Shown: in pieces, positions 723 to 16,017 of the stretch
Layout of the letters: each line of letters begins with the position of its first letter
Position numbering within the stretch: the first letter of the stretch is position 1
Source: Escherichia coli
GTDB lineage: Bacteria; Pseudomonadota; Gammaproteobacteria; Enterobacterales; Enterobacteriaceae
DNA length: 64,000 nucleotides
NCBI RefSeq assembly: GCF_044324785.1
Contig: NZ_CP172127.1
Strand: one strand, 5' to 3'
Made by a program: the position numbers and the translations under genes
Notes under the pieces: model-generated
The model's input: only the letters and a program-made list of their open reading frames with translations
What the model was told of the DNA's origin: nothing
Database searches by the model: none

Positions 723-3235
723 TGCCAGTCGTACCAACAGTATCCGGACGTCAGGTTGAGAGTCGTGGAGTTCAGTCAGCAGGCTTGCAGACGTTTTCTC
801 AGCAAGGTATTGGTGATGCTTTTGTTCGGGCAGGGACAGAGGCAATTGATGTTTTGGGGCAGGCAAAACAGCGTGCCAATATCGCTCTGGCTCAGGAGGC
901 ATCTCTTAACCTCAGTCAGATAAGCAGCGATCTGCTGAATAATCCTGAAACAGGATTGCTTAACCTGAAAGGGAAAAATGCTATTGGAAAAGGCCATGAG
1001 TATACGCAGCAGTTTGATGCTCAGGTCGAACAACTGGCTATGTCGCTGCCGGATGAACAGGCTCGTAATGCTTTCATGCAGCAGGCGCAGCAGCAGCGCA
1101 TTCAGTTCACTACGCAGGCCGGGCGACACGAGATAGGGCAAATTAATGCCTACGAAGAAGGCCAGTTTCAGGCGACACTGCTGAACAATGGTAAAAATGC
1201 CGCAGCATTGTATGGCGACAACGCCGCATACGTATTGGCTAACAAACAAACTTTCCAGCAAATTGAGGAGTACGGTGTTGCACATGGCTGGAGCAACGAG
1301 CAAATCCAGGCCAAGAAAATCGAGTTTAAAGAGAAGGTTGCTGATGCTGCATTGTCCCAGTGGTCGGCAAACAATGCGACCGCATTCATCCAAAGTAATG
1401 GCGAGTTAAGTGATACTGCTGCTGGAGCTCGCCGTGCTGTAGCAGATAGTGACTCTTCCGAGCGTGCCCGTGGCATACGCAACAATAACCCAGGAAATCT
1501 CGAATACAGCAAAACTAATCCGTGGGTAGGCCAGACCGGTGATGATGGTCGATTTGCTAAATTCGAAACACCTGAACACGGGATTCGTGCATTAGGGCGG
1601 AACCTGATGTCGTATCAGAGGCAGGGTATTGATACCGTCAGCGAGATAATTAATCGCTGGGCACCGCCTGCTGATAAAAATGACACTATGTCGTATATCA
1701 AAGCAGTGTGCGAACAACTTGGCGTTTCTGCTGATGAGCCTCTCGATGCATCTAATCCTGATACCCTGAAGGCGCTTTGTGCAGCCATTATCCATCATGA
1801 GAACGGTAGCCAGCCATACAGTGATCAGCAGTTAACTGCTGGTGTCAGTGCAGCACTTGGTTTATCAACAATTCCAACCAACACCAAACGCTATACCGGT
1901 AATGCAGCATTCGATGCGGCATCTCCTGAGGCGCAGGCAAGTTTTATGCGACAGGCGGATCAACTGCGTCGGCAGCAGCAGGCTGAATATAAAACGATGA
2001 TTGACAGCCAGGTTCGCGATGCGACAGCTGCGTATATGCGTGGCGTTGAATTTCCTAACCCACCTGGTGAGGCTGATTTTATTGCAGCTTATGGAGTAAG
2101 AGAAGGAAACCTGCGATATACCGAGTTCAGAAATACGCAAATCGCCGGACAGTATATAGGCTCTTTCCGCAACATGCCGACAAGCAGCATTACAGCATAT
2201 GTTGAGCAATTACGCCCGGATACTGGTGAGACAGGGGAGGGTTATGCGGCACGAGCCGCTCTTTATGACAACGTTGTGTCGGCTGCAAGTCAGGTGATAA
2301 AGCAGCGACAGGCTGATCCTGTACAGTTCTCTCTTGCCGCCGGACAGACAAAGCCTATCGACATGAGCAATAAGGATAACTTTGGACAGAGCGTTGCCTT
2401 GCGTGCTGCTCAGGTCAGTGACCTTGCTAAGTCATATGGCACTCCACTGACGTTCTTTTCCAAAGACGAGGCCAATCAGATCGGTGTTTTCTTTCGTGAT
2501 GCGCCCGTTTCCCAACAGGCAGCATATCTCGATACCATCAGGCAGAGCACTGGTGGTGGGCAGGTGTATATGTCAGCACTACAGCAGATCAGTGCCAACG
2601 CTCCATCTGCTGCCGTTGCCGGGATACTGATGGATAAGCCAGGTGGTATTTTGGCAGAAAAAAACTGGTTTAATCCGGATGTTTCCGTGTCTCCTGAAAC
2701 CGCTGCGCAGACAATTCTTGCTGGCGCGGCGGCTCGTAAAGGTACTGATGATGCGAAAGGTATTCCGATGCCTAAAGATGCTGATCTTCGCCTTGAGTTT
2801 TCTGACATGGTGAAGGATGCATTTGCTGGTGACGCTCAGGGGGCATCAATGGCATACGAGATCGCAAAGGATTATTACGCTGGTGTGATGGCGAAAAAAG
2901 GCGTGGTATCAGGCGAAATTGACAATGATGTCTGGAAACAGGCTGTTAACGTAGCTACAGGTGGCGTGCATGACTATAACGGAATGGGGAATGTCCTTTT
3001 GCCGTGGGGAATGTCTGCAGAGCAATTCGATAAGCAGGTTAATCAGGCTTGGAATGAACAAGTTGTCGGCTCTGGGATAAAAACACCGCCTGGTCAGTAT
3101 GGTTTGCAAAGTTACGGCGATAGTCAGTACCTGGTGAAACTTGGTACTGGTTATCTGCTGAAAGATGATGGTTCTCCCGTTGTTCTTAATCTGACACAGA
3201 AGCGTCAGAGATTCTCCGGAGATATTCCGCAATGA
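722..3235 (+). CDS. Large phage virion/ejection (core or tail-hub type) protein, about 837 aa
   Basis: ORF 647..3235 with likely start at ATG 722 overlapping upstream stop; coiled-coil-like Gln/Ala-rich stretches; conserved-looking NNNPGNLEY segment. Confidence 0.5.
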   Translation: MPVVPTVSGRQVESRGVQSAGLQTFSQQGIGDAFVRAGTEAIDVLGQAKQRANIALAQEASLNLSQISSDLLNNPETGLLNLKGKNAIGKGHEYTQQFDAQVEQLAMSLPDEQARNAFMQQAQQQRIQFTTQAGRHEIGQINAYEEGQFQATLLNNGKNAAALYGDNAAYVLANKQTFQQIEEYGVAHGWSNEQIQAKKIEFKEKVADAALSQWSANNATAFIQSNGELSDTAAGARRAVADSDSSERARGIRNNNPGNLEYSKTNPWVGQTGDDGRFAKFETPEHGIRALGRNLMSYQRQGIDTVSEIINRWAPPADKNDTMSYIKAVCEQLGVSADEPLDASNPDTLKALCAAIIHHENGSQPYSDQQLTAGVSAALGLSTIPTNTKRYTGNAAFDAASPEAQASFMRQADQLRRQQQAEYKTMIDSQVRDATAAYMRGVEFPNPPGEADFIAAYGVREGNLRYTEFRNTQIAGQYIGSFRNMPTSSITAYVEQLRPDTGETGEGYAARAALYDNVVSAASQVIKQRQADPVQFSLAAGQTKPIDMSNKDNFGQSVALRAAQVSDLAKSYGTPLTFFSKDEANQIGVFFRDAPVSQQAAYLDTIRQSTGGGQVYMSALQQISANAPSAAVAGILMDKPGGILAEKNWFNPDVSVSPETAAQTILAGAAARKGTDDAKGIPMPKDADLRLEFSDMVKDAFAGDAQGASMAYEIAKDYYAGVMAKKGVVSGEIDNDVWKQAVNVATGGVHDYNGMGNVLLPWGMSAEQFDKQVNQAWNEQVVGSGIKTPPGQYGLQSYGDSQYLVKLGTGYLLKDDGSPVVLNLTQKRQRFSGDIPQ

Positions 3236-5034
3236 GTTACTTTGGCCTTAATCCAGTAAACCAGAATCAGCAGCTTGACGAAGCAGCATCAAATCCAGCT
3301 GGCTTTAACAGCGATGTTGGTTTTTTCGACAATGCTGTAGGAGCGGCATTGTCTGGTTTGTACTCCGGGCTGGTGGCAAAGCCAGATCAGTTGCTATGGG
3401 CAGGGATGGATAAAATCGTATCCCCGATTGCTCAGTTTATTAACGAAAACACCTCGCTCAATGATACTTCAGTTTCATACATTGCCGAGCAGAGAAAACT
3501 AGCAGAGCAGCAGGTTAAGCGGCTGACGCCTGATGCCGCGACAACCGGAACCGCCGGGCAGGTTCTTTATGGGTTGTTCGATATGGGCGGGCAGGCTGTT
3601 GTCGGTACAACGCTCGGTGGTCCTGTCGGAGGTGCAGCGGCGGTAACTTCGCTACAGGGTTTTTCTGAGTTTGAACGGCTGACAGCACAGGGTGTTGATT
3701 TCAGGACGGCGCAGGAAGCGGGATTAGTGCAGGGCATTACTGCTGGTGCCGGAACACTGATCCCTATGAGCCTCGGGTTACGTGCTGGTGGTGCGCTGGC
3801 GGAAGGTGTGGCGGCTCAGCTTGCGCGGGCGGGTGAGAGTTCAGTGCGACGCGCCGCAGCAACAGCAGTACGTGCAACGCCAGATATTGCCTATGCCGCA
3901 GGTACAAATATTGCGTTCGGTATGGCACAGCGTGGGCTTACTGCAAAAACACTTCGTGATGGTGGCTATAGCGAAATGGCTAACCAGTATGATGTGTTGG
4001 ATCGACAGGCAATTGCTATTGATGCTGTTCTTGGGGTGGCGTTTGGTGGTGTCGGCAGATTTATTAACTCTCGCGGCGAGTCTACAAGCGCACCAAATTT
4101 TTCACCAGTTGATGTTGATGCTGCACTGGCGGCGAATGCCGCTCATCATGCTGAAATTGATATTGCGCCCGGCGTGCCGATCAACGTGCTTTCGCGCAAT
4201 TCTCACATTCAGGCTCTGCGAAAAGCTATGTCTGATGTTAGCCAGGGGAGACCTGTAGACGTTGCCAGCATTGTTGAGTCTGCATCTTTCAGTGAAATTC
4301 CTGGGCGCAAGAGTCTGCTGTCTCAGGCAGTTAATGAGGCTCTGTCATCTGTAGATGATGGAGTAACGGCGCGCGCTATAGAAAATCGGTTGCTTGAAGA
4401 ACAGGCCGCGCAGCTTTTGCCGCGTGGCGATAGACAGGTTTACCAGTCTGAAATAGCTAATAGCCAACGAATTATTGAAAATCTCACTGAACAGCGCGCA
4501 CAAATTCTTGCAGAAGAGCCAACCGGTAGCGGTAAATCTTTGTCTCGTGCTCGATCAGATAAACAGGTCAGACTTCGCGATATTGACCAACGAATCCGGC
4601 AGGCACAAGAACGCCTGGAATTTTCCCGTAACGCGTTGGCACCGCATGAGCCTGGCGGTCAGTTTTTTGAAGCTCGAGCAGAACTGGCACGGAGACAGCA
4701 GGCTGAAAGTGAACTTAATGCTCAGGCTGTTTCATTCTATAAAACAGCAGAGGTCAGGACGCCAGACGAAGTAGCTCCTTTTGAGCCTGATAAAATATTG
4801 CAACAGGCAGAACAAAAAATGATGGCGGATCAGGCAGGAGATATTGATCTGCGCATAGCTGAAGACTCGCTGCTTGAATCACCTGACATGATAATCACCG
4901 TGCTGGATGATGATGGTAATCCACAATCGCGCAGCGCGCGTGAAGTACTGGATGAAGCGAACAGGGAAAGTGAGCAGGCAATACAGGATTCCAGCCTGTT
5001 TGATGTCGCTGTGGCGTGTTTCTTGAGAGGTTAA
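3232..5034 (+). CDS. Phage virion/ejection protein, 600 aa, Gly/Ala-rich N-terminal half and charged coiled-coil C-terminal half
   Basis: ORF track; ATGA overlap with upstream stop. Confidence 0.5.
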   Translation: MSYFGLNPVNQNQQLDEAASNPAGFNSDVGFFDNAVGAALSGLYSGLVAKPDQLLWAGMDKIVSPIAQFINENTSLNDTSVSYIAEQRKLAEQQVKRLTPDAATTGTAGQVLYGLFDMGGQAVVGTTLGGPVGGAAAVTSLQGFSEFERLTAQGVDFRTAQEAGLVQGITAGAGTLIPMSLGLRAGGALAEGVAAQLARAGESSVRRAAATAVRATPDIAYAAGTNIAFGMAQRGLTAKTLRDGGYSEMANQYDVLDRQAIAIDAVLGVAFGGVGRFINSRGESTSAPNFSPVDVDAALAANAAHHAEIDIAPGVPINVLSRNSHIQALRKAMSDVSQGRPVDVASIVESASFSEIPGRKSLLSQAVNEALSSVDDGVTARAIENRLLEEQAAQLLPRGDRQVYQSEIANSQRIIENLTEQRAQILAEEPTGSGKSLSRARSDKQVRLRDIDQRIRQAQERLEFSRNALAPHEPGGQFFEARAELARRQQAESELNAQAVSFYKTAEVRTPDEVAPFEPDKILQQAEQKMMADQAGDIDLRIAEDSLLESPDMIITVLDDDGNPQSRSAREVLDEANRESEQAIQDSSLFDVAVACFLRG

Positions 5035-5039
5035 ATTAA

Positions 5040-7514
5040 ATGAGACAGGAATGTATACAAGCGGTCCAGCAGGCGGCGCAGCGCACGTTAACGGCGCGAG
5101 AAATACAGAACATTGAAGACCGCATTTATCGAAATATGCGCTCCATTGCTCGTGATGACCCGATGTCGTGGAGACAACTTTCCGAATCAGAGCGGCTATA
5201 TCGTGCAGCACAATTGGCATCTGAAGAATTACAGCGAGAAGCGGCATTAAAGAAACGTCGTGTGGCCCTCACTATAGCCGCACGTCAGAGATTGGATAAA
5301 TTTATCAATAGCTATCAAGGGGCTGATGGGAAACTTGGCGCTCTTAACCGTACTATTGCTTTTAATGCAGACGGTAAATCGAATTTCCTCTCTGTTGAAT
5401 CCAGAACAAAAGCCACTCGTGATTATGCATTGAGTCAATTGCAGGAGGCATTTGAAGCAGTTGATCCTCGCTTTTTTGGCCTGTTTGAAGATGAAGCTGG
5501 CGTGCGTGACCTGGTATATGAAATGCGAGGGCAAAATACTGGCAATGCTAAAGCAAGAAAAGGTGCTAAGGCGTGGAGAGAAGTGACAGAGCTACTGCGC
5601 CGCCGGTTTAATGATGCTGGTGGGGACATTGGCTATCTCGAAAACTGGGGGCTCCCTCAACATCATTCTATGGAAAAGGTTGGGGCGGTATCAAAGGATA
5701 AGTGGGTTAGCGATGTTATAGGTAAGCTGGATCGCAAATATTATACCCGAGTCGATGGACAACTGATGAACGATGCCGAGTTGTCTGCATTTCTTGGAGA
5801 GGCTTATAACACGATCGCTACTGGTGGGCTGAATAAGCTTACTGATACCGGAATGCGAATTTCCGGCGCACGTGCTAACCGGGGTAATGCATCACGACAG
5901 ATACATTTCAAAGATGCAGATTCCTATCTGCAATATCAGCAACTTTATGGCGATCGCTCTCTATGGGAAATCATGGTCGGTCACCTGGAAGGTATCAGTA
6001 AAGATATTGCACTGGTGGAAACATATGGCCCAAACCCCGATCATGTTTTCCGCTCTCTTCTTGATCAGGTGAAGGCAGAAACGGCAACAGCTAACCCGAG
6101 TAAAACCGGTAAAGTCGAGCGGCTGGCGAACAACACAGAGAATCTGTACAACTTTATTTCCGGAAAGACACAGCCTGTAGCGAATCCGCACATCGCGCGA
6201 TGGTCTGACAATATCCGCAACTGGCTGGTTGCCAGCAGACTCGGATCCGCGTTGCTGTCATCGTTCTCTGATCTTGGAACCATGTATCTGTCTGCGAAGG
6301 TTACCAACCTTCCAATGAACCAGTTATTCCGCAACCAGCTTGAAGCTATGGACCCAACGAACCGTACAGAACTTGCGCGGGCGCGCCGCGCTGGTCTGGC
6401 GATGGAATCTCTACTTGGCAGCGTTAACCGCTGGGCGATGGATAATATGGGGCCGTCTGTGTCTCGTTGGGCTGCAACGGCGGTAATGCGTGCCAGTGGG
6501 CTTACAGCATGGTCAGATGCGCACAAGCGCGCCTATGGCGTAACCATGATGGGAAGCCTGGGAGAAGTAGTGTCACGGACACCAGACCTTCGTAGCCTCG
6601 ATGATTCTGATTTTCGTATCCTGAAAAGCAAAGGGATTACTGACACAGACTGGAGCGTATGGAAGCTGGCGCAACAGGAGGACTGGGGGAACGGTAATAA
6701 TACGATGCTGACACCGGAAAGCATTATGCGTATCCCTGATTCAGCAGTTAAACATCTTGGTGAGCCTGAACGCGTGAAATTTGAGGCAATGCGTAAACTG
6801 CTCGGTGCCGTAACTGAAGAAGTTGATATGGCTGTTATTACACCGGGTGCACGTGAGCAACTGATAACCGGTTCTGGTATTCAGCGTGGAACATGGAAAG
6901 GTGAATTAACGAGAAGTGTTTTCCTGTTTAAATCGTTCCCTATCTCGGTGGTTATGCGTCACTGGTCACGCGCTATGGGTATGCCGTCGGCTGGTGGGCG
7001 TGCGGCATATATTGCGACGTTTATTGCCAGTACGACCATTCTTGGCGCTTTGTCGCAGCAACTTAACGACCTTGCGTCTGGTCGTAATCCTCGCGAGATG
7101 ACAGGAGAAGATGCTGCTAAATTTTGGCTTGGTGCTCTACTGAAAGGTGGTGGTCTTGGCCTTTACGGTGACTTTTTATTGTCAGATCACACTAGGTACG
7201 GAAGCGGCGCGCTGGCGTCGATGCTTGGCCCGGTAGCTGGTCTGGTTGATGACGTAGTGAAGATTGCTCAGGGCATACCGTTAAATGCTGTGGAAGGGAA
7301 GAATGAGCAGACTGGTGGTGATCTGGTTAAGCTGGGGAAAGGTCTGATGCCAGGTGCGAATCTCTGGTACTTAAAGGCGGCTCTCGATCACATGATCTTT
7401 AACCAGATGCAGGAGTATTTTTCACCAGGTTATTTGCGTAAAATGGAGCAACGTTCGAAGAAAGAGTTTAACCAGACATACTGGTGGCGACCACAGGATG
7501 TCACTCCGCAATAA
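5040..7514 (+). CDS. Large phage virion/ejection protein, 824 aa
   Basis: ORF track; RBS gagagg upstream; last gene of coupled block. Confidence 0.5.
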   Translation: MRQECIQAVQQAAQRTLTAREIQNIEDRIYRNMRSIARDDPMSWRQLSESERLYRAAQLASEELQREAALKKRRVALTIAARQRLDKFINSYQGADGKLGALNRTIAFNADGKSNFLSVESRTKATRDYALSQLQEAFEAVDPRFFGLFEDEAGVRDLVYEMRGQNTGNAKARKGAKAWREVTELLRRRFNDAGGDIGYLENWGLPQHHSMEKVGAVSKDKWVSDVIGKLDRKYYTRVDGQLMNDAELSAFLGEAYNTIATGGLNKLTDTGMRISGARANRGNASRQIHFKDADSYLQYQQLYGDRSLWEIMVGHLEGISKDIALVETYGPNPDHVFRSLLDQVKAETATANPSKTGKVERLANNTENLYNFISGKTQPVANPHIARWSDNIRNWLVASRLGSALLSSFSDLGTMYLSAKVTNLPMNQLFRNQLEAMDPTNRTELARARRAGLAMESLLGSVNRWAMDNMGPSVSRWAATAVMRASGLTAWSDAHKRAYGVTMMGSLGEVVSRTPDLRSLDDSDFRILKSKGITDTDWSVWKLAQQEDWGNGNNTMLTPESIMRIPDSAVKHLGEPERVKFEAMRKLLGAVTEEVDMAVITPGAREQLITGSGIQRGTWKGELTRSVFLFKSFPISVVMRHWSRAMGMPSAGGRAAYIATFIASTTILGALSQQLNDLASGRNPREMTGEDAAKFWLGALLKGGGLGLYGDFLLSDHTRYGSGALASMLGPVAGLVDDVVKIAQGIPLNAVEGKNEQTGGDLVKLGKGLMPGANLWYLKAALDHMIFNQMQEYFSPGYLRKMEQRSKKEFNQTYWWRPQDVTPQ

Positions 7515-7523
7515 GGAAGTGTT

Positions 7524-7697
7524 GTGTTTTTAATTATTTTGAGTGTGATAATTTCTGGTGGATTGTTATTTATTGACCGCTACAAATATTTTCTTAACCC
7601 TCAGACTCAAGCTATTTGCTGGTTCATCTTTGTTGTGCAGGGAGTAGTTCTTGTTGCAAGCCTTATTGAGGGGAGGCCTCTTATTTTTACTGGGTAA
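7524..7697 (+). CDS. Small hydrophobic protein, 57 aa, GTG start
   Basis: AAGGAAG 4 nt before GTG 7524; translation is almost entirely hydrophobic; not in ORF track (<60 aa). Confidence 0.3.
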   Translation: MFLIILSVIISGGLLFIDRYKYFLNPQTQAICWFIFVVQGVVLVASLIEGRPLIFTG

Positions 7698-7710
7698 ATT
7701 AGGTGACTAC

Positions 7711-8007
7711 ATGCAAGCTATAGGATTCATTGTTTATATCGTCGTTGGTCTTTTTCAGTTGGCAGCAATTATGGCTGGGCTTGAATCATGGTGGGGATTG
7801 CACTGGATAATTGCAGCCCCCATTGCTTTCATCGTGAGCTATATTCCATTTGTTGGAGCGATTGTTGGTATGGTTGGCGCTGTGGATGTATGGCGGTGGG
7901 AGTGGTGGCAGGCTGGCCTTCTCTTCTTTGGTGGGATCATCTTTGCTATTGTCTGCGGTGGAATGTCATCATTTTTCGAATGGCTATCATTCAGAAAAGG
8001 GACGTGA
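7711..8007 (+). CDS. Small integral membrane protein, about 99 aa (candidate superinfection-exclusion type)
   Basis: ORF 7651..8007; likely start ATG 7711 after AGGTGA; several hydrophobic segments. Confidence 0.45.
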   Translation: MQAIGFIVYIVVGLFQLAAIMAGLESWWGLHWIIAAPIAFIVSYIPFVGAIVGMVGAVDVWRWEWWQAGLLFFGGIIFAIVCGGMSSFFEWLSFRKGT

Positions 8008-8015
8008 CATGTCAC

Positions 8016-8040
8016 AGGCCGCTTTCGCGGCCTTGTTTTT
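8016..8040. terminator. Hairpin plus T-tract terminator, likely bidirectional
   Basis: aggccgc-tttc-gcggcct followed by tgttttt directly after stop at 8007. Confidence 0.55.
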
Positions 8041-8200
8041 AACGAATGCCACCGCCGCCTGGGCGGGAATCCGCAGAACGCCCACCGCAGCGTGAGCCGT
8101 CAGCAGCAGTGTCGCTGTCGTGCTGACAACGACCGGCAAAGGCCTGAGTTGAAGCTACCAGAGACAACAAAACGAACAGTGCAGCAAATGCTTTTTTCAT
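8039..8200 (-). CDS. Small exported peptide, 53 aa, signal peptide with AFA cleavage motif and two-Cys Gly-rich mature part
   Basis: Internal ATG 8200 of ORF 8039..8272; N-terminus MKKAFAALFVLLSLVASTQAFA; own promoter. Confidence 0.3.
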   Translation of the reverse strand: MKKAFAALFVLLSLVASTQAFAGRCQHDSDTAADGSRCGGRSADSRPGGGGIR

Positions 8201-8212
8201 TGTGACATTTCC

Positions 8213-8241
8213 ATCTATAAGCCACCTCAATGTGGCGTCAA
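8213..8241 (-). promoter_or_regulatory. Sigma70-like promoter for small exported peptide gene (TTGACG, 16 bp, TATAGA)
   Basis: Read on minus strand between terminator of upstream cassette and ATG 8200. Confidence 0.4.
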
Positions 8242-8267
8242 TGAGTGTAGCACTGACTTTTGTTTCG

Positions 8268-8293
8268 TCCACAAAAAAGCCCGCAGCGCGGGC
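8268..8293 (-). terminator. Rho-independent terminator of the two-gene cassette
   Basis: Minus strand GCCCGCGCUGCGGGC hairpin followed by UUUUUUG, overlapping stop codon at 8293-8295. Confidence 0.6.
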
Positions 8294-8733
8294 TATTCTT
8301 CTTCATCATTAAAAAGCGGATTGTTGTTTCCATCTGATGAAAGGAAAGGTATGTGTTCTCTTGAAAATCCAACAATGACAATTTCATTATCATTTTTTGC
8401 ATAATGAATGCATTCATTAGAATGCCTTCCGCCAGGGTTGAAATTTAAGTTAATGGTATAATTCTTAAATGTGTTTGGATACCATGTTGGCCCACAATGA
8501 TAATGCCAATAATTCTCTTGCTCATAATTGTCTGAGCCGGGAATTTTATCATGGTTATCATCAACCCACGAGGGCTTGTTTTTTCCAACAAGCGCCCTTC
8601 CATTGGCAACATCCTCTAAAAAACTTTGTATGATTTTTATTTCATCATCAGTAAGGAAAGGTCCGTCTACAGCGAAAGGGGTGTTGCTTTCCCCATGTAG
8701 AAAACTATTAGATATTCTAATGTTAAACTTCAA
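8293..8733 (-). CDS. Unknown 146-aa protein, no internal Met, proposed TTG start, acidic C-terminus (AT-rich cargo gene)
   Basis: Frame of ORF 8293..8874; AGGAG 6 nt before TTG 8733; upstream part of the 193-aa ORF overlaps a better-supported small gene in another frame. Confidence 0.45.
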   Translation of the reverse strand: MKFNIRISNSFLHGESNTPFAVDGPFLTDDEIKIIQSFLEDVANGRALVGKNKPSWVDDNHDKIPGSDNYEQENYWHYHCGPTWYPNTFKNYTINLNFNPGGRHSNECIHYAKNDNEIVIVGFSREHIPFLSSDGNNNPLFNDEEE

Positions 8734-8753
8734 GGAAAACTCCTGATGTGCTT

Positions 8754-8921
8754 CTATTTGGAGCGAAATGCCGCCTTGAAGTCGCTGAAAGATGTTCCTG
8801 TCTGGTAAACCATATCCTTGTCGCGCTCTTTGCTTGCGCGGCCAAGCATAACTTTTCCAATGACATCCCAGCATTGCTTGGCTTGTTCATTGTGCTGAGT
8901 ACGATTTTTCAACGCTGTCAT
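8754..8921 (-). CDS. Unknown small basic protein, 55 aa (MTALKNRTQHNEQAKQCWDVIGKVMLGRASKERDKDMVYQTGTSFSDFKAAFRSK)
   Basis: ATG 8921 preceded by AAAGGAGG at 7-nt spacing; hand-translated; below ORF-track length cutoff. Confidence 0.45.
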   Translation of the reverse strand: MTALKNRTQHNEQAKQCWDVIGKVMLGRASKERDKDMVYQTGTSFSDFKAAFRSK

Positions 8922-8947
8922 ATCGCGCCTCCTTTACCTTTAAGGTA

Positions 8948-8976
8948 ATAGTACGCTATTCACCCACAGTCTGCAA
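8948..8976 (-). promoter_or_regulatory. Sigma70-like promoter of the two-gene cassette (TTGCAG, 17 bp, TACTAT)
   Basis: Minus-strand reading about 27 nt upstream of ATG 8921. Confidence 0.4.
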
Positions 8977-9020
8977 TCTGTACAGAATTATTTAAAGGCA
9001 CATCCCTGTGCCACCGCCCG

Positions 9021-9713
9021 TCAGAAGAACCCTGCTTTGTCGTTGATGTACTCCGCGTGCGTCTGGATATCACGCAGGCATTTGCTCACACCGACGATGT
9101 AGCAGAACATGGTGGTCAGCTCCGCCGCCGCGCCCGATACGTCGTGCCCGTCTTCCTGTAACTGGTTCAGCAGATTCATCAGCAGTGAGTTCTCCGTCAG
9201 GCCGAGAACACCAGACGGCGAATGAATCAGGCTGCGGTAGCCGGGCTTCAGCGGGGCGCTGTAGGTTTTGTTCTCTATCTTCATCGCCTGCATTACTGCT
9301 GACGCCGTGGCGTTGGCTACCTGGTCGGCAACCATCTTTATGCGTTCTTCCTGCGGGAGCGAGTTTTTAATGTAACTTCCGGTGCGACGGATCTGAGGAA
9401 GAACCTCACCTGTAACCCATTCAAGAAATCTGAATGCTCTCGTTCCCTCTGTCATTGCCTCTTTGCAACGCAGAATAAGGATGTAGAGACCTGATTCTGA
9501 AACGATGGATAGTTCTTGTATTCCACCAGGGGTCTGTATTGAATACAGCCCCTTTTTGTTCCAGCCTTTTTTATCAAGTTTTCTCGCTTGTGTAACATCA
9601 ATATTCAAAGCATTGCACACATCTTTGGTGACAAACCAAGGTTCTCCGTCAATCATGAACATACGGATCTGGCAGGATGACTCAAAGGAAAAGATGGAAG
9701 GTTTGGTATTCAT
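9021..9713 (-). CDS. Bro-N domain antirepressor-like protein, about 230 aa
   Basis: N-terminal FSF...IR..MIDGEPWFVTKDVCNALNI matches Bro-N/phage antirepressor signature; start ATG 9713 after AAGGTGA. Confidence 0.7.
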   Translation of the reverse strand: MNTKPSIFSFESSCQIRMFMIDGEPWFVTKDVCNALNIDVTQARKLDKKGWNKKGLYSIQTPGGIQELSIVSESGLYILILRCKEAMTEGTRAFRFLEWVTGEVLPQIRRTGSYIKNSLPQEERIKMVADQVANATASAVMQAMKIENKTYSAPLKPGYRSLIHSPSGVLGLTENSLLMNLLNQLQEDGHDVSGAAAELTTMFCYIVGVSKCLRDIQTHAEYINDKAGFF

Positions 9714-9857
9714 GGCGATCACCTTTGTAGTTAGGTTAATCACCACCGCTGAGACCAATCAGATGGTGGTGAACTGTGCAGAGTTGGTCTTACCGGCTAC
9801 AAAGGAACCCGGCGCACCTTTCGGTGCCCCCACACAGCCCACCATAGAATAGGTGCG

Positions 9858-9876
9858 CTTTACACATAAAAAAACC
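9858..9876 (-). terminator. Weak candidate terminator (4-bp GC stem plus U7) ending the LexA-controlled transcript
   Basis: Minus strand GCGG-auaa-CCGC then UUUUUUU. Confidence 0.3.
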
Positions 9877-9890
9877 GCTTATGCGGCATA

Positions 9891-9944
9891 TGTGCCTCTG
9901 TAGTAATCCGGGAGACCAATCCCGGCACTGGATTTTGCCAGTGC
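9891..9944. other. Three-way-junction forming element: 7-bp outer stem enclosing two 6-bp hairpins
   Basis: tagtaat / ccggga-gaccaa-tcccgg / cactgg-attttg-ccagtg / attacta, all perfect complements. Confidence 0.4.
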
Positions 9945-9960
9945 CTGATTACTATGGCAC

Positions 9961-9989
9961 AAGAGGAGTGCTTATATTTACCGCAAAGG
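9961..9989. other. Perfect 12-bp stem hairpin with 5-nt loop
   Basis: cttatatttacc gcaaa ggtaaatataag. Confidence 0.45.
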
Positions 9990-10023
9990 TAAATATAAGC
10001 ACTCCAGTTGGTAATTACAAACC

Positions 10024-10281
10024 TTATCTGGTTTGTTTTCGTAATTGTTCGGCACAATAGTCTAGATGTGTTTGCAGATCCTGCATAGACATCTGTGAGC
10101 TGGTGACGTAGTTAATCAGTGCAGTCAGTTCGGCAAGTGGGCCATCGACATTAAATCCATCCTTATCGAGATCCCGGAGTAATTTCATCAAGTGCGATCC
10201 CTCCACCAGTGACCTGACGCCTCCCGGCGTGTGAATCCTTTCGGTAAATCCGTCTTCCAGTGGATAGTGATACTGCTGCAT
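10024..10281 (-). CDS. 85-aa protein, stand-alone paralogue of the C-terminal domain of the Bro-N protein; candidate SOS-induced antirepressor
   Basis: ATG 10281 after GGAGAAG; alignable to residues about 170-230 of the 9021..9713 product; LexA box 22 bp upstream. Confidence 0.55.
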   Translation of the reverse strand: MQQYHYPLEDGFTERIHTPGGVRSLVEGSHLMKLLRDLDKDGFNVDGPLAELTALINYVTSSQMSMQDLQTHLDYCAEQLRKQTR

Positions 10282-10302
10282 CTTATCTTCTCCATGCAAT
10301 AA

Positions 10303-10318
10303 CTGTATAAATATACAG
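10303..10318. promoter_or_regulatory. LexA (SOS) box CTGTATAAATATACAG
   Basis: CTGT-N8-ACAG with AT-rich spacer, 18/20 match to TACTGTATATATATACAGTA including flanks. Confidence 0.65.
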
Positions 10319-10476
10319 TATCAAATAATTTGTTTGCTATCCAGCACGTTTTGCAAATCACCTGAAAGGTAATATCTTTTCGTATTTATGGATTATCTAT
10401 CCATATGTGGTTTTTCAGGTAATAGAATAACCAGATATGCGGCGCAACGGGTGCTGCGACTATCTGGAGATTTAAC

Positions 10477-13233
10477 ATGACGGTCTCAACCGAAGTTGAC
10501 CACAACGAATACACCGGTAACGGCGCTACGACATCATTTCCGTATACCTTCCGTATTTTCAAAAAATCCGACCTGGTTGTTCAGGTGTCTGACCTGAACG
10601 GGAACGTAACAGAATTGGTTCTGGATACCGGTTATACGGTAACTGGGGCGGGCACTTATAGTGGCGGTTCTGTTGTTCTTCCGTCGCCGCTTGCTGCTGG
10701 ATGGCGAATTACGATAGATCGTGTGCTTGATGTAGTGCAGGAGACAGACCTTCGCAATCAGGGAAAATTTTTCCCCGAAGTGCATGAAGATGCTTTTGAC
10801 TACCTGACGATGCTGATCCAGCAATGTTTTGGGTGGTTCAGACGTGCATTGATGAAACCATCTTTGCTTGCAAAATATTACGATGCAAAGCAAAACAGAA
10901 TTTCTAACCTTGCAGATCCATCACTTGAGCAGGATGCTGTAAATAATCGCTCAATGCGTAATTATGTTGATGCTGCAATCGCCGGAGTTGTTGGTGGTTT
11001 TGGTTGGTTTATTCAGTATGGTTCTGGAGCAGTATACCGAACGTTCCAGGATAAGATGCGGGATAACGTTAACGCTCTTGATTTTGTTCCGTTTGAGCAA
11101 AGATATGCTGCATTAAATTTTGAAGTTGATGCGTCTGAATGGTTAATTAATGCGATAAATTCTGGTGCAAGTGTCGTTAGAATACCTGCAGGTAAATGGA
11201 TGATTTCTAAGAACATAGATGTGCCTCCTGGAGTGTCATTAATTGGTGATGGCATTGATTATTGGGATACATATAGACCAGCGCCTGAAAGATTATTAAA
11301 AAGTTGGAGTAAAGGAACCCATCTTGTATTTACTGGTGATGGAGAAAAAAACAAATATTTTTTTAACATCTCTAATGAAAGACCAGTTAAAATTGTTGAA
11401 GGGATATCTTGTAAGTTCACTGAGTTTACAAATGAAGATTCTGTAGGTGTTACTCCTGCTACACCAAAAGCCATGAGCGTAGCTGTTAGTATCAACAGGG
11501 CATCACAGTTACGCAACCTGAGAATAATGGTAAGTAAAAATGGTATTGAAGGATACAATAACCCTGATTCTTATTCATTGGGTGATGACTGGGATATAGG
11601 GTTGCATGTATACGATAGCTGTGATTCAGTTATTGATAACGTACAGATTGTCGGCTATTGGAGGGTAAAAGGACTACTACTGACAGAAAATGACGGGAGC
11701 CTTTCAATGAAGGGAAATCCTGAAAAAACGCACTTTAATAACGTTTATGTCCAGTCAGGGATCGCGATAAGGAATAGCCCTCAGATTGATCTTGTAAGTA
11801 ATACTGAAAGCTCAGTGACATTTAAACATAAAAAGTCGATGAGAATAACTTCAGTTAAACAGTTTAAAATTGCTGGCAGTGAATTAGTATATACGTATTC
11901 AGATGCATCATTTGATGGAACTAACATCACACTATCTGGTATTTCTCCTGAAATACAAGGTACAATAAGTGTAATCAGGTTTCCGTCAATTGGTAATAAT
12001 TTTAGCGGGACTGTTTTTGAGAATACAGTAGCCACTACTCTTGATCATACATCAGGTAAGCCATCAGAATACTTTGGCCTTCCTGCATCCTTTGCATTAG
12101 AGGTTGATGGTTTCCCTGTTCGTAATTTAAGGTTTGATAAATTCAAAGCTCAAACAACATTTGATAAAGGAAATTGCATTTTTGGTGATTGCCGTGATGT
12201 TAAAATAACATCATCTGAGTTTGAAAATGGAATTATGATTGCGTATAACCTGACCGAGACTCAGGGTTATACAGGAAATCTTAGATTTTTTGCTTCTGAT
12301 CTTCAGAGCAGCGTTAACACAAGTGAGTTTAAACCAAGAGACGCATTTGTAGACAATAGACAAATAAAAACGGAGTTTACTGATGGTTCGTTCATTATAA
12401 AGAACTGGAGGCCTACAGATACAAAAATACAATGGTCGTCTGGAGCAGATGCTATTGTTCTTAGAGAGTCACCTGACGAACAATCAAACGGAAATATTTA
12501 CGGGCATCACATTGATGGTAAAAGATGGATTAATGTTAGTGGATATAACAAAGATATAAATATTTCATCAAGAAACTTAAGCGTAAAAAACCATGGTGAT
12601 GACTCTGCAGTTATTAATATATTCGGCGACTCTGGAAATATTGCCATTAAAGGTAATTTTTCACCAATTATTGATAACAGCAAATCTCTTGGTGCACCAT
12701 CATTTAGATGGGCACAGGTTTATTCTGCGAACGGTTCGATAAACACATCAGATGGTAGAGAAAAAAGTGAACCGATTAGTACAAGTGAGCTCAGCTTGTA
12801 TATGTCTCGTGGTTATGAAGGTGATGCAATTCTGGATGCATGGGGAGATATCAGGATTGTAGCTTTTCGCTGGCTTGATGCCGTCAGGGAAAAGGGAGAT
12901 GGTGCCCGCTGGCATTTTGGTGTTATAGCACAACAAGTGAGAGACGCTTTCCTCGCGCATGGGATTGATGGAACCAGATTTGGCCTTCTCTGTTACGATG
13001 AATGGGATGATAAATACGCGCCAGTGATGGCGGTAAGGATGATCACTAAAGTTGTGGATGGCGTCGAAATTGAGATGGAAGAAGAATACGAAACAGAAGA
13101 GCGAACTCTGGTTTGCAAGGCTGGAAATAGGTGGGGTATCCGTACTGACCAGTGTTTATGGCTTGAGTCAGCTTATTTGCGTAGAAGAATCGAAAAAATA
13201 GAATCACGTCTTGCAATGCTTGAAAGTAGCTAA
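10477..13233 (+). CDS. Tailspike/tail fibre, 918 aa: T7 gp17-like N-terminal anchor, AT-rich central receptor-binding part, C-terminal intramolecular chaperone (peptidase S74-like) domain
   Basis: ORF track; GGAG RBS; N-terminal pattern resembling podovirus fibre anchors; C-terminal SDGREK motif region; GC drop in the middle. Confidence 0.8.
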   Translation: MTVSTEVDHNEYTGNGATTSFPYTFRIFKKSDLVVQVSDLNGNVTELVLDTGYTVTGAGTYSGGSVVLPSPLAAGWRITIDRVLDVVQETDLRNQGKFFPEVHEDAFDYLTMLIQQCFGWFRRALMKPSLLAKYYDAKQNRISNLADPSLEQDAVNNRSMRNYVDAAIAGVVGGFGWFIQYGSGAVYRTFQDKMRDNVNALDFVPFEQRYAALNFEVDASEWLINAINSGASVVRIPAGKWMISKNIDVPPGVSLIGDGIDYWDTYRPAPERLLKSWSKGTHLVFTGDGEKNKYFFNISNERPVKIVEGISCKFTEFTNEDSVGVTPATPKAMSVAVSINRASQLRNLRIMVSKNGIEGYNNPDSYSLGDDWDIGLHVYDSCDSVIDNVQIVGYWRVKGLLLTENDGSLSMKGNPEKTHFNNVYVQSGIAIRNSPQIDLVSNTESSVTFKHKKSMRITSVKQFKIAGSELVYTYSDASFDGTNITLSGISPEIQGTISVIRFPSIGNNFSGTVFENTVATTLDHTSGKPSEYFGLPASFALEVDGFPVRNLRFDKFKAQTTFDKGNCIFGDCRDVKITSSEFENGIMIAYNLTETQGYTGNLRFFASDLQSSVNTSEFKPRDAFVDNRQIKTEFTDGSFIIKNWRPTDTKIQWSSGADAIVLRESPDEQSNGNIYGHHIDGKRWINVSGYNKDINISSRNLSVKNHGDDSAVINIFGDSGNIAIKGNFSPIIDNSKSLGAPSFRWAQVYSANGSINTSDGREKSEPISTSELSLYMSRGYEGDAILDAWGDIRIVAFRWLDAVREKGDGARWHFGVIAQQVRDAFLAHGIDGTRFGLLCYDEWDDKYAPVMAVRMITKVVDGVEIEMEEEYETEERTLVCKAGNRWGIRTDQCLWLESAYLRRRIEKIESRLAMLESS

Positions 13234-13247
13234 ATATTGAGGATTAA

Positions 13248-13300
13248 TCTTAGTAGCCGACTTGCTTATTACGAAGTAAGTTCGGCTTCTTTCTTCTTTA
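13248..13300 (+). terminator. Candidate terminator after tailspike (imperfect hairpin plus T-rich tract)
   Basis: agccgacttgctt...aagttcggct followed by tctttcttcttt. Confidence 0.35.
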
Positions 13301-13462
13301 ATTGTGACTGAGAGGTACACTAGACCATTTTCTGAACGAAATTTTCATTGCCGTAGAAGGTAGAAATACAGCGTTTTGAGGTAACTATTATCCTTAAATG
13401 GTTTATTATGTGTGAATCTTCAATAGTAAGGAGATTGTTATGCGTAATAAACGGTGTTCATT

Positions 13463-13867
13463 ATGTCAGCCCATCTAACTACTGATTCTTTAAATCAATG
13501 GCTTAGTGTGAGCTCTCTTGCTGCAGTTATCGTAGGCGTTCCGCCAGAGGTGGCGCTCGGTGCTCTTGCTGGTGCGGTAATTTTTGTTACCTCTGCGGTA
13601 GAGTACCCAATTCATCGTCGCGTACTCTTATCGATGCTTAGCTTTCTCTGTGGACTTCTTTTCTACAAACCAGCAGCATCAATTCTTATCGGCATAGCCA
13701 GCCTGATCCCTACCATCACGCAGGACTCTTTTGAAAAAGGGATTGTTTTCTCTGCTGGCGCATTCGTGTCAGCAATTGTCGCTGTGCGTATTGGTATATG
13801 GCTCTACCACCGTTCAGACAATCCACGCGATTTAATTCCGGGGAGAAAAGACGATGGTAACGCATGA
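13463..13867 (+). CDS. Membrane protein with multiple TM segments (holin partner or second holin type)
   Basis: ORF 13454..13867; hydrophobic stretches; start GTG 13454 or ATG 13463. Confidence 0.45.
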   Translation: MSAHLTTDSLNQWLSVSSLAAVIVGVPPEVALGALAGAVIFVTSAVEYPIHRRVLLSMLSFLCGLLFYKPAASILIGIASLIPTITQDSFEKGIVFSAGAFVSAIVAVRIGIWLYHRSDNPRDLIPGRKDDGNA

Positions 13868-14162
13868 GTTTTTTTTGCTTATCACCAATGCAGTTATTTG
13901 TACTGGCATAGCAATTCGCGTTGTCACATTCCGGCGTAACGGCTCTCAACATCGAAGATGGGGAGGGTGGCTTGCTTATTTCCTTATTGTTGCTGCGGCC
14001 AGTATTCCTGTTCGTGTCGTCTATGCAATCTGGTTACGCACGCCAATGGCTGTGGATTTATCTGAGGTCATTATCAACGCTGTCATGCTTGCCGCGGTTA
14101 TTAAAACACGCGGTAACGTTGTTCAGATTTTCAAAATATCGAGGTCTAAACATGGAGATTAA
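13854..14162 (+). CDS. Holin, 102 aa, three predicted TM segments, basic C-terminus
   Basis: ORF track; position immediately upstream of and overlapping endolysin. Confidence 0.55.
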
Positions 14163-14781
14163 ACAATTCCAGCGAGCTGCTGGTATTAGCGAGGCGCTGG
14201 CCGCACGCTGGTTCTCGCATATAACTTCTGCGATGAAAGAGTTTGGTATCAGCAAAGCAGAAGATCAGGCAATGTTTATTGCTCAAGTCGGGCATGAGTC
14301 TGGGGGCTTCACCAGGTTGCAGGAGAATTTCAACTACAGTGTCAGCGGACTGGCTAACTTCGTTCGGGCTGGGCGTCTCACTCAGGGGCAGGCTAATGCA
14401 CTGGGTCGCCATGCTGGTGAACCACCATTGCCACTCGAGCGCCAGCGAGCGATTGCCAATCTGGTGTACAGCAAACGCATGGGGAACAATGCCCCCGGCG
14501 ATGGCTGGAATTACCGTGGCCGCGGACTTATCCAGATTACCGGTTTGAATAACTATCGTGATTGCGGAAACGGCCTGAAAGTGGACCTGCTGGAGAATCC
14601 TGAACTGTTGGCGCAGGACGAATACGCGGCTCGTAGCGCGGCGTGGTTCTTCTCCAGCAAAGGTTGCATGAAGTATACCGGCGATATTGCACGTGTAACT
14701 CTGATTATCAATGGTGGCAGGAATGGCATCGACGACCGGCGCGCGCGGTACGTCACTGCCAGTAAGGTGCTGGCGGTATGA
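14152..14781 (+). CDS. Endolysin, glycoside hydrolase family 19 type, about 209 aa
   Basis: Internal start ATG 14152 (GAGG 7 nt upstream) of ORF 13921..14781; [11 protein letters not shown] motif typical of GH19-type endolysins. Confidence 0.8.
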
Positions 14782-15260
14782 TCTGGGCATTCGTAAAAGC
14801 ATACTGGAAACAGTTGATTATCGTGGCAGTGCTTGCTGTTCTGGTCATATCAGGAGTTGTTGCCTGGAATGTACACGGTATCCGTCAGTACGACGCCGGG
14901 TATGCGCAGGCGAAAGAAGACTGCAAAGCCGAAGAAGAAAAAGTTCGTCAGTACTACGAACAGGAGAAAGTGACCAATGAACGTGAAGCTCAGCAGAGGA
15001 TCGACCAGGCGCGCAATGATGCTCTTGATGCTGCCGCTAGCGCTGGCCGGTTGCAGCAACAACTCTTTGCCATCCGTGAGCAGCTCAGGCAGTATAACGC
15101 CATTGTCGGCGCTGGGTCGTCAGCCGCAGACACCGGAGTTTTGCTTGCCGACGTGCTCAGCAAATCTCTCGAGAGAAACAGACAACTGGCAGAGTATGCT
15201 GACCGGGCAGCCGAAGCCGGAAGAGTCTGCGAAAAACAGTACGACACTTTGACCAGATAG
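14778..15260 (+). CDS. Rz-like i-spanin, 160 aa, N-terminal TM then coiled-coil
   Basis: ATGA overlap with endolysin stop; TM helix then charged helical region. Confidence 0.7.
15016..15252 (+). CDS. Rz1-like o-spanin lipoprotein embedded in the Rz gene in another frame
   Basis: ORF 14977..15252; lipobox LALAGC; Ser/Pro-rich mature region; ends 8 nt before Rz stop. Confidence 0.65.
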   Translation: MMLLMLPLALAGCSNNSLPSVSSSGSITPLSALGRQPQTPEFCLPTCSANLSRETDNWQSMLTGQPKPEESAKNSTTL

Positions 15261-15364
15261 CATGGCATTTTTCATGGTACTGATTTCCGGTGACGGTATA
15301 TAAAACGGTACGGGAAAAATTGAGATTTGGAAAAATGTTATCACTCAATTGGTTATGGTTATCG

Positions 15365-15385
15365 TAAATAATTGAGTGGGAATGA
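15365..15385 (+). other. guaA: attR core region with remnant of guaA 3' end (reads ...IIEWE stop)
   Basis: att gag tgg gaa tga at 15371-15385 matches the GuaA C-terminus as I recall it, preceded by an in-frame stop where phage sequence begins. Confidence 0.45.
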
Positions 15386-15410
15386 TTTGACCCTGCACTA
15401 TGAATGAACA

Positions 15411-15440
15411 AAACCCTCTGTTACTACAGAGGGTTTTTTA
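15411..15440. terminator. Rho-independent terminator (native guaA terminator, possibly bidirectional)
   Basis: ccctctg-ttacta-cagaggg followed by ttttttat. Confidence 0.6.
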
Positions 15441-15477
15441 TCTTCAAGAATTATAGGCTTGAAGTTACTTACATCGA

Positions 15478-16017
15478 TTAATTAAACCAGCTGTCCGATT
15501 TGTTCTCTTCTGCTTTGCCCACGCTTTTCATCAGATCGCGACCGCCCTCAGTCATATTCCTGTTTGCGTCAGCTTCAGATTGCACCACATCGGTTTGCGC
15601 AGCTTTGTGCTTCAGTTCCTGATCGATAAATTCGTTTTCGCGCTTAACGCGGGCTTCTTCTTTCGCCAGCGCCAGTTTTTGTTTCTGAATCTCTAAGCTG
15701 CGTAGCTCATCTTCATAACTTTGATCGCGTTTTTTGTCCGCAGTGGCTTCGGCGTCCAGTTTATCCTGACGAGCTTTCTTATTTGCCGCTGCCGTTGCCG
15801 CTCTTTTATTAGCGGCGGCCTGGGCATTTGCGCGACGTTGCTTCTCTTGCTGGATTTCCCTGTTGCGCTCCGCGACCCATTCGTCATGCTGCCTTTGCTC
15901 TTCATTTTTACCTTGCTGTTCCGCTTCTGCGACAGCAGAGAGTTGATCCTGCAATGATGAGGCGATAGCCGGATAGCTTAAGGAGGCTAAGATGGCGCAA
16001 AGAAAAACTTTCTTCAT
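15478..16017 (-). CDS. yfgI: YfgI, 179 aa, signal peptide, charged repetitive protein
   Basis: ORF track; length and synteny with K-12. Confidence 0.8.
   Translation of the reverse strand: MKKVFLCAILASLSYPAIASSLQDQLSAVAEAEQQGKNEEQRQHDEWVAERNREIQQEKQRRANAQAAANKRAATAAANKKARQDKLDAEATADKKRDQSYEDELRSLEIQKQKLALAKEEARVKRENEFIDQELKHKAAQTDVVQSEADANRNMTEGGRDLMKSVGKAEENKSDSWFN

What the first reader, a model, noticed from the sequence alone, without database searches (positions are those of the whole stretch)
15300..15440. Prophage right junction rebuilds the guaA terminus: integration into the 3' end of guaA
Immediately after the lysis cassette, the plus strand reads att gag tgg gaa tga (IEWE stop) at 15371-15385, which I recognise as the C-terminus of GMP synthase, preceded by an in-frame stop where phage-derived sequence begins, then a hairpin terminator and convergent yfgI. 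A 9-bp inverted repeat (cactcaatt at 15342-15350, aattgagtg at 15370-15378) brackets the junction. Several temperate podoviruses are reported to use the guaA 3' end as attB; this window contains only attR.
Basis: partly seen in the sequence, partly recalled or inferred. Interest (0 to 1): 0.45.

Follow-up and report, generated by a model that had tools for sequence, protein, structure and literature searches.

The report
Known prophage junction at guaA end
This is the right-hand junction (attR) of an epsilon15/phiV10-type prophage sitting in its published attachment site at the very end of the E. coli guaA gene; it is real and correctly read, but ordinary and already described.

Summary
Window 15371-15385 reads att gag tgg gaa tga, the last four codons and stop of guaA. 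An in-frame TAA lies at 15365-15367, the native guaA terminator hairpin at 15410-15437, and convergent yfgI at 15478-16017 (-). A four-way comparison of an empty site (E. coli TG1), phage phiV10 attP, and attL and attR of the closest lysogen (CREC-U1) shows exactly 17 shared bases, ATTGAGTGGGAATGATT (window 15371-15387). Phage DNA lies to the left and chromosome to the right. This is letter for letter the published core of phiV10, epsilon15 and vB_EcoP_ZX5 (PMC9782041, confirmed there by PCR and Sanger sequencing). The prophage half in the window (1-15370) is about 98% identical to those Uetakevirus podophages. About 10% of complete E. coli genomes carry the same junctions (547 attR-type, 567 attL-type, of 5426). 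Two corrections apply. First, attR does not rebuild guaA; it holds an orphan copy of the core. guaA stays intact at attL, outside the window, because the core spans its last codons, and there it receives a phage-borne look-alike terminator. Second, the 9-bp inverted repeat is not the crossover site. Its left arm coincides with a conserved IHF-like motif in the phage arm. Verdict: already known, low interest.

The parts
1..15370 (+). Right-hand part of an epsilon15/phiV10-like (Uetakevirus) prophage: internal virion and structural genes, antirepressor region, 918-aa tail fibre (10477-13233), lysis cassette and the P arm of attP
   Evidence: 97.9-98.8% identity to phiV10, phiv142-3 and vB_EcoP_ZX5 over the shared structural genes. 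Lysis region 89.7-98.2% to Escherichia Uetakevirus phages and 82% to epsilon15. Collinear at 98.5-99.6% with the 40.4-kb prophage of E. coli CREC-U1.
13454..15260 (+). Lysis cassette: membrane/holin-like protein 13454-13867, holin 13854-14162, GH19 endolysin 14152-14781, Rz-like spanin 14778-15260 with embedded Rz1 lipoprotein ORF 14977-15252
   Evidence: Pfam Phage_holin_8, Phage_holin_3_7, Glyco_hydro_19 and DUF2514. Same order and lengths as phiV10p27-p30a.
15261..15370 (+). P arm of attP retained at attR. It holds GTGACGGTAT (15290-15299) and a second ACGGTAC (15305-15311), candidate arm-type integrase sites, and the IHF-like motif ACTCAATTGGTTA (15343-15355)
   Evidence: Near-identical to the phiV10 sequence left of its core. 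GTGACGGTAT is annotated as an integrase binding site four times in the epsilon15 record, and the IHF sites are annotated at the homologous positions. GGTGACGGTATATAAAACGGTA and TCAA-N4-TTA are conserved in the attP and attR sequences compared. GTGACGGTAT is expected 0.09 times per window by chance.
15342..15378 (.). The left arm is in the phage arm; the right arm overlaps the core
   Evidence: Exact in the window. The left arm reads CACTCAATT in phiV10, Tyrion and TL-2011b, CAGTCAATT in SPN1S and a Klebsiella prophage, and AATTCAATA in epsilon15. It is therefore not strictly conserved, and no function as a pair is shown.
15365..15367 (+). In-frame TAA in phage DNA, two codons before the orphan guaA codons
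   Evidence: Read directly from the sequence. It lies in the block GTAAATA conserved in all attP.
15371..15387 (+). att core ATTGAGTGGGAATGATT (17 bp), the segment shared by attP, attB, attL and attR. It contains the last four guaA codons and the stop (15371-15385)
   Evidence: Four-way comparison. BLAST alignments of empty-site genomes start at 15371 and those of free phages end at 15387. Identical to the published core (PMC9782041).
15374..15380 (+). Predicted overlap (strand-exchange) segment GAGTGGG, flanked by imperfect inverted 8-mers AAATAATT (15366-15373) and AATGATTT (15381-15388)
   Evidence: Inference from the sequence. GIsul2, a different element using the same guaA site, duplicates GAGTGGGA (PMC9376610). 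A DUF262 islet in E. coli CH4796 is flanked by repeats sharing GAGTGGGA.
15410..15437 (+). Native guaA rho-independent terminator, now placed after the prophage lysis operon
   Evidence: Terminator scan. Fold energy -17.8 kcal/mol. Identical to the sequence after guaA in TG1.
15478..16017 (-). yfgI, the chromosomal gene convergent with guaA
   Evidence: Pfam DUF5384, E 4e-62. Annotated yfgI in TG1 and CREC-U1.

Best explanation
Window 15371-15387 is the core of attR, the right junction of an epsilon15/phiV10-type (Uetakevirus) temperate podophage. The phage integrated by site-specific recombination into its standard attB, the last 15 bases of guaA plus two more. The phage's P4-type tyrosine integrase has an N-terminal arm-binding domain and is encoded about 190 bp right of attP. 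It sits at the far, attL end of the prophage, outside this window. It pairs the 17-bp core of attP with the identical 17 bp of attB and exchanges strands within it, probably in the central GAGTGGG. IHF is likely to help by bending the arms. The core spans the final four codons and the stop, so guaA is unchanged at attL. What guaA loses is its own terminator, and the phage P' arm supplies one with the same stem. At attR the phage late (lysis) operon now runs into an orphan 'IEWE stop' core copy and the original guaA terminator, facing yfgI. Shown here: the positions and identity of the four att sequences, the phage family, the integrase domains in a close relative, and the frequency in E. coli. 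Shown in the literature: integration and the junction sequences for ZX5. Inferred: the exact exchange point, the roles of the arm-type and IHF motifs, and the presence of attL and int in this particular genome.
For:: attB (TG1), attP (phiV10), attL and attR (CREC-U1) and the window share exactly ATTGAGTGGGAATGATT. The window's left flank equals the phiV10 left flank, and its right flank equals the TG1 right flank; alignment break points fall at 15371 (empty sites) and 15387 (phages); the closest lysogen (99.1% over window 1-17300) has an intact 525-aa guaA, then the integrase, then a 40.4-kb prophage ending in the same lysis cassette before yfgI; that integrase has Arm-DNA-bind_3, Phage_int_M and Phage_integrase domains; phiV10 has the order lysis cassette, terminator, integrase. 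(PMC9782041): the same 17-mer is given as attP and attB of ZX5, phiV10 and epsilon15, with attB, attL and attR amplified and Sanger-sequenced. (PMC3293862): TL-2011b is inserted in guaA; 547 attR-type and 567 attL-type junctions in 5426 complete E. coli genomes; arm-type (GTGACGGTAT) and IHF-like motifs are conserved across the attP and attR sequences compared, from Escherichia, Salmonella, Enterobacter and Klebsiella.
Against: The window itself contains neither attL nor the integrase, so completeness and excision competence of this particular prophage are not shown. No genome in the collection matches the window exactly (best 99.1-99.2%). The exchange point and the protein-binding roles of the motifs rest on sequence inspection and on predicted features in the epsilon15 record, not on footprinting.
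Confidence: 0.96

Rival explanations
1. The junction belongs to a decayed, fixed prophage remnant. Its right end is intact, but attL and/or the integrase have been lost, so it no longer acts as a recombination site.
For: attL and int lie outside the window and could not be inspected. Integrase-less islets do occur at this site, such as the DUF262 islet in CH4796. The 567 attL-type and 547 attR-type counts differ slightly, so some genomes carry only one junction type.
Against: All visible prophage genes from 1 to 15370 are full length and 98-99% identical to inducible phages. The core and P arm are undamaged. The closest relatives carry a complete 40.4-kb prophage with int.
Confidence: 0.1
2. 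The 9-bp inverted repeat (15342-15350 / 15370-15378) is the functional recombination element, a pair of integrase core-type sites bracketing the crossover.
For: It is exact in the window and extends to 14 nt at 86% complementarity. Its left arm is largely conserved in phiV10, Tyrion, TL-2011b, SPN1S and a Klebsiella prophage.
Against: Strand exchange must lie inside the 17 bp shared by attP and attB. The arms are 19 bp apart, whereas tyrosine recombinases typically use a 6-8 bp overlap (textbook knowledge). The left arm is absent from attB. In epsilon15, which has the same core, the left arm is AATTCAATA, matching 5 of 9 positions. What is invariant there is TCAA-N4-TTA, an IHF-consensus match annotated as IHF sites in the epsilon15 record. 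About 7 such repeats per window arise by chance. A better candidate pair is AAATAATT / AATGATTT around GAGTGGG.
Confidence: 0.05
3. The 'IEWE stop' match is a coincidence, and the phage lies in an intergenic site unrelated to guaA.
For: Only 15 coding bases are visible, and no guaA body is in the window.
Against: In TG1 and about 4900 other genomes the same 17-mer is the annotated end of guaA, followed by the identical terminator and yfgI. In lysogens guaA abuts the other prophage end.
Confidence: 0.01

Closest known systems
attP/attB system of Uetakevirus phages phiV10, epsilon15 and vB_EcoP_ZX5 (guaA 3' end, core attgagtgggaatgatt)
   Same: Identical 17-bp core. Homologous P arm with the same arm-type and IHF-like motifs. 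Same position after the lysis cassette. Same bacterial flank (guaA terminator, yfgI). Structural genes about 98% identical.
   Different: The distal part of the tail fibre (window about 11090-13230) and the antirepressor region (about 9294-9735) differ from the named phages. This is ordinary mosaicism and does not affect the att site.
Phage TL-2011b of EHEC O103:H25
   Same: Inserted in guaA, with the same core and P arm.
   Different: The deposited record is 44.8 kb and runs into host DNA (yfgI, yfgH, yfgG). The paper reports only 53% identity to phiV10 overall.
Genomic island GIsul2 (integrates at the 3' end of guaA at GAGTGGGA)
   Same: Same host target. Its 8-bp site lies inside the 17-bp core, at window 15374-15381.
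   Different: It is a resistance island, not a phage. Its duplicated core is shorter and it has its own integrase and att arms. Relatedness of the two integrases was not tested here.
Lambda-type and P4-type tyrosine-integrase attachment sites that overlap the 3' ends of genes or tRNAs
   Same: A core identical in phage and host, and arm-type plus IHF sites in attP. The target gene is preserved because the phage copy restores its end (established knowledge).
   Different: The target is a protein-coding gene rather than a tRNA. The identity is only 17 bp, with a separately conserved terminator hairpin further along the P' arm.

Membership tests
Uetakevirus (epsilon15/phiV10-like) prophage attR at guaA | Core sequence ATTGAGTGGGAATGATT shared by phage and host | tested here: met
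   Window 15371-15387 is identical to the core in phiV10, in TG1 attB and in CREC-U1 attL and attR, and to the published sequence.
Uetakevirus (epsilon15/phiV10-like) prophage attR at guaA | The left flank is the phage P arm following the lysis cassette | tested here: met
   Window 15261-15370 aligns with the attP of phiV10, epsilon15, SPN1S and Tyrion. The lysis genes match in order and family.
Uetakevirus (epsilon15/phiV10-like) prophage attR at guaA | The right flank is the chromosomal sequence downstream of guaA (terminator, yfgI) | tested here: met
   Identical to TG1 downstream of guaA. About 4900 genomes align from 15371 onward.
Uetakevirus (epsilon15/phiV10-like) prophage attR at guaA | A second core copy at attL, joined to an intact guaA, with a P4-type tyrosine integrase next to it | not testable with these tools
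   This lies outside the 64-kb window. It is met in the closest lysogen, CREC-U1: guaA 525 aa, core, then int 190 bp downstream with Arm-DNA-bind_3, Phage_int_M and Phage_integrase domains. 567 genomes carry an attL-type junction.
Uetakevirus (epsilon15/phiV10-like) prophage attR at guaA | Genome content of the genus (podovirus structural module, about 39-40 kb) | tested here: met
   Window 1-10600 is 97.9% identical to phiV10 and up to 98.8% to ZX5 over the shared parts. Only the right 15.4 kb is visible.
Uetakevirus (epsilon15/phiV10-like) prophage attR at guaA | Demonstrated integration and excision at this site | not testable with these tools
   Shown experimentally for vB_EcoP_ZX5 by PCR and Sanger sequencing of attB, attL and attR. 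Not shown for this prophage.
Tyrosine-recombinase core architecture | Inverted core-type sites flanking a 6-8 bp overlap inside the identity segment | tested here: inconclusive
   AAATAATT-GAGTGGG-AATGATTT: the arms agree at 7 of 8 positions as an inverted repeat around 7 bp. This rests on sequence inspection only. It is supported indirectly by the GAGTGGGA duplication of GIsul2 and of the CH4796 islet.

The most novel reading that the evidence does not exclude
The P' arm of these phages carries a terminator hairpin with the same stem as the host's own guaA terminator (AACCCTCTG...CAGAGGGTT), about 45 nt beyond the 17-bp core. The sequence between the core and the hairpin is unrelated to the host's. 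This suggests that the attP region descends from a captured guaA 3' flank. Integration would then amount to a deliberate terminator swap: the guaBA operon ends on a phage-supplied copy that also shields int from read-through, and the phage lysis operon ends on the host copy. Together with GIsul2 and a DUF262 islet using GAGTGGGA, the guaA end would be a shared hot spot whose 3' regulatory context is actively preserved by its occupants.
Probability: 0.4. Interest if true: 0.2.

Novelty: already known. Interest (0 to 1): 0.1.

Why it matters
The result matters little beyond correct annotation. It fixes the prophage boundary at 15370/15371, with core 15371-15387. It explains the stray 'IEWE stop' fragment as an att core duplicate rather than a broken gene. 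It also shows that guaA is not inactivated by the insertion. The site is common: about one in ten complete E. coli genomes carries such a prophage. Automatic pipelines and even reference phage records (TL-2011b) mis-set this boundary, so a precise core is useful for prophage delimitation.

Tried and rejected
(1) I looked for the window's own genome in the complete-genome collection in order to read its attL directly. The best matches were only 99.1-99.2% identical, so attL was examined in the closest lysogen instead. (2) I tested whether the 9-bp inverted repeat is special. It is expected about 7 times per shuffled window. Its left arm is not conserved in epsilon15, while an IHF-like motif at the same place is. 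I therefore rejected it as the recombination element. (3) I considered the upstream ATTGAGATTTGG (15319-15330) as a second core-like site. It is not conserved in phiV10 (ATGAAGTTTTGG) or the other phages, so I dropped it. (4) I checked the 13.9-kb stretch at 32698-46558, which is absent from the closest lysogen, as a possible island. It is the ordinary hyf operon, present in 4291 of 5426 genomes. (5) I did not use the large protein, structure or metagenome searches, because the question was settled by DNA comparison and the literature.

Full report
**Observation**

- 15371-15385 reads ATT GAG TGG GAA TGA.
- The same frame has TAA at 15365-15367, followed by ATA.
- CACTCAATT (15342-15350) and AATTGAGTG (15370-15378) are exact reverse complements. 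The repeat finder extends them to 14-nt arms at 86% complementarity.
- A terminator-like hairpin with 12 pairs and a T-run lies at 15410-15437, with a fold energy of -17.8 kcal/mol.
- The convergent ORF at 15478-16017 (-) is YfgI (Pfam DUF5384, E 4e-62).
- Upstream is a complete lysis cassette: a holin-like protein (13454-13867), a holin (13854-14162), a GH19 endolysin (14152-14781), and an Rz-like spanin (14778-15260) with an embedded Rz1 ORF (14977-15252).

**What it is**

A 501-base query across the junction (15200-15700) hit 5416 of 5426 complete E. coli genomes. In most of them the alignment starts at query base 172, which is window 15371, and the feature under it is guaA followed by yfgI. 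In 547 genomes the alignment covers the phage side as well.

A query from the lysis region (13300-15400) hit phiV10, epsilon15, SPN1S, vB_EcoP_ZX5, phiv142-3 and other Uetakevirus phages. Their alignments end at query base 2088, which is window 15387. The two sets of alignments therefore overlap by 17 bases.

I extracted four att sequences and the window, and compared them directly:
- the empty site from E. coli TG1;
- attP from phiV10;
- both ends of the prophage in the closest lysogen, CREC-U1, which is 99.1% identical to window 1-17300.

All share exactly ATTGAGTGGGAATGATT. The sequence left of it in the window and in CREC-U1 attR matches the phiV10 left flank closely. The sequence right of it in the window is identical to the TG1 sequence downstream of guaA. 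At CREC-U1 attL the guaA body is joined to the phiV10-type right flank. This is the complete signature of conservative site-specific recombination. The window holds attR with its core at 15371-15387.

In CREC-U1, guaA is annotated intact (1578 nt). It is followed after 190 bp by a 416-aa integrase with Arm-DNA-bind_3, Phage_int_M and Phage_integrase domains. The prophage there is 40.4 kb.

**Literature**

PMC9782041 gives 'attgagtgggaatgatt' as the attP core of vB_EcoP_ZX5, 190 bp upstream of its integrase, and as the attB at the 3' end of guaA. It reports PCR and Sanger sequencing of attB, attL and attR, and states that the same sequence is the attP of phiV10 and epsilon15. PMC3293862 notes that the phiV10-related phage TL-2011b is inserted in guaA. 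The finding is therefore a further copy of a described system.

(1) attR does not rebuild guaA.
- The core covers the last four codons, the stop and two more bases, so the guaA coding sequence is unchanged at attL, which lies outside the window.
- What sits at 15371-15385 is the orphan second copy of the core. It has no guaA body in front of it and is closed off by a phage TAA two codons upstream.
- What guaA does lose on integration is its native terminator, which stays at attR (15410-15437).
- The phage P' arm supplies a replacement about 45 nt beyond the core. This hairpin has the same stem (AACCCTCTG / CAGAGGGTT) and a different loop, with a fold energy of -16.3 kcal/mol. The intervening sequence is unrelated to the host's.
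- The hairpin is present in phiV10, epsilon15, SPN1S, Tyrion and the CREC-U1 prophage, with a one-base stem change in epsilon15 and a small one in Tyrion. The native Klebsiella guaA terminator also has this stem.

(2) The 9-bp inverted repeat is not the crossover element.
- Exchange has to occur within the 17 bp shared with attB, and the left arm lies 21-29 bp outside that segment.
- In epsilon15, which has the same core, the left arm reads AATTCAATA.
- What is invariant across the attP and attR sequences compared is TCAA-N4-TTA (window 15345-15355). This matches the IHF consensus WATCAANNNNTTR, and IHF sites are annotated at this position in the epsilon15 record.
- Perfect 9-bp inverted repeats with a short spacer arise about 7 times per shuffled window.

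**Anatomy of the site (inference)**

- The attP core region reads AAATAATT-GAGTGGG-AATGATT(T/A): imperfect inverted 8-mers around a 7-bp segment. This is the usual layout of core-type sites and overlap for a tyrosine recombinase.
- Two independent observations point to GAGTGGG(A) as the exchange segment. The resistance island GIsul2 integrates at the same guaA end and duplicates GAGTGGGA (PMC9376610). A 3.8-kb integrase-less islet with two DUF262 genes in E. coli CH4796 lies between guaA and yfgI, flanked by imperfect repeats whose common part is GAGTGGGA.
- The P arm in the window carries GTGACGGTAT (15290-15299) and a second ACGGTAC (15305-15311). GTGACGGTAT is annotated four times as an integrase binding site in the epsilon15 record. 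It recurs in the P' arm just upstream of int in all phages compared. It is expected 0.09 times per window by chance. This fits an integrase with an arm-binding domain.
- None of these protein-DNA assignments has been tested here.

**The prophage and its frequency**

- Window 1-10600 is 97.9% identical to phiV10 over the 67% of the 13.3-kb query that aligns. ZX5 reaches 98.8% over window 1-8139.
- The distal tail-fibre region and an antirepressor segment differ from the named phages, as is usual for this mosaic group.
- The tail fibre ends in a Peptidase_S74 chaperone domain.
- attR-type junctions occur in 547 complete E. coli genomes and attL-type junctions in 567, of 5426. About one genome in ten is occupied.

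**Limits**

attL and the integrase of this particular genome lie outside the window, and no collection genome is identical to the window. A decayed remnant cannot be formally excluded. I put that at about 10%, given the intact genes, core and P arm.

**Verdict**

The feature is the already published attR of a Uetakevirus prophage at guaA, and the interest is low.

Noticed in passing
window 17302-18495: A 1.2-kb IS5-family insertion (330-aa transposase ORF at 17370-18362, +) lies between yfgG and pdeF (yfgF). It is absent from TG1 and from the closest lysogen, CREC-U1.
   Followed up: partly
window 32698-46558: A 13.9-kb stretch is missing from the closest lysogen, CREC-U1. It is the hyf (hydrogenase 4) operon with hyfR, present in 4291 of 5426 E. 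coli genomes. This is ordinary lineage variation, not an island.
   Followed up: yes
L008 (NC_019445.1, phage TL-2011b) 3724-5555: The reference record of phage TL-2011b runs through attR into host chromosome. yfgI, yfgH (labelled 'DNA methyltransferase') and yfgG are annotated as phage genes gp54-gp56.
   Followed up: partly
L010 (E. coli CH4796) 185-4021: A 3.8-kb islet with two DUF262-domain genes and no integrase sits between guaA and yfgI. It is flanked by imperfect repeats (ATTGAGTGGGAGTGAGG / ATCGAGTGGGAATGATT) that share GAGTGGGA, the same 8-bp site reported for GIsul2. The guaA end is a shared integration hot spot.
   Followed up: partly
L003 5430-5470; L001 about 4995-5027; compare window 15410-15437: The phage P' arm carries a terminator whose stem is identical to that of the native guaA terminator, with a different loop and an unrelated spacer. 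On integration the two terminators swap partners: guaA gets the phage copy and the lysis operon gets the host copy.
   Followed up: partly
window 9294-9735 and about 11090-13230: The antirepressor region and the distal two thirds of the 918-aa tail fibre (C-terminal Peptidase_S74 chaperone domain) diverge from phiV10, ZX5 and phiv142-3. The distal tail-fibre region matches other prophages (Phi05_1387 B), which suggests receptor-specificity mosaicism.
   Followed up: no
window 55648-55657 (-): A second exact copy of the arm-type motif GTGACGGTAT lies far from the prophage in chromosomal DNA. It is probably chance: 0.09 copies are expected per window, and none of 100 shuffles had two.
   Followed up: no
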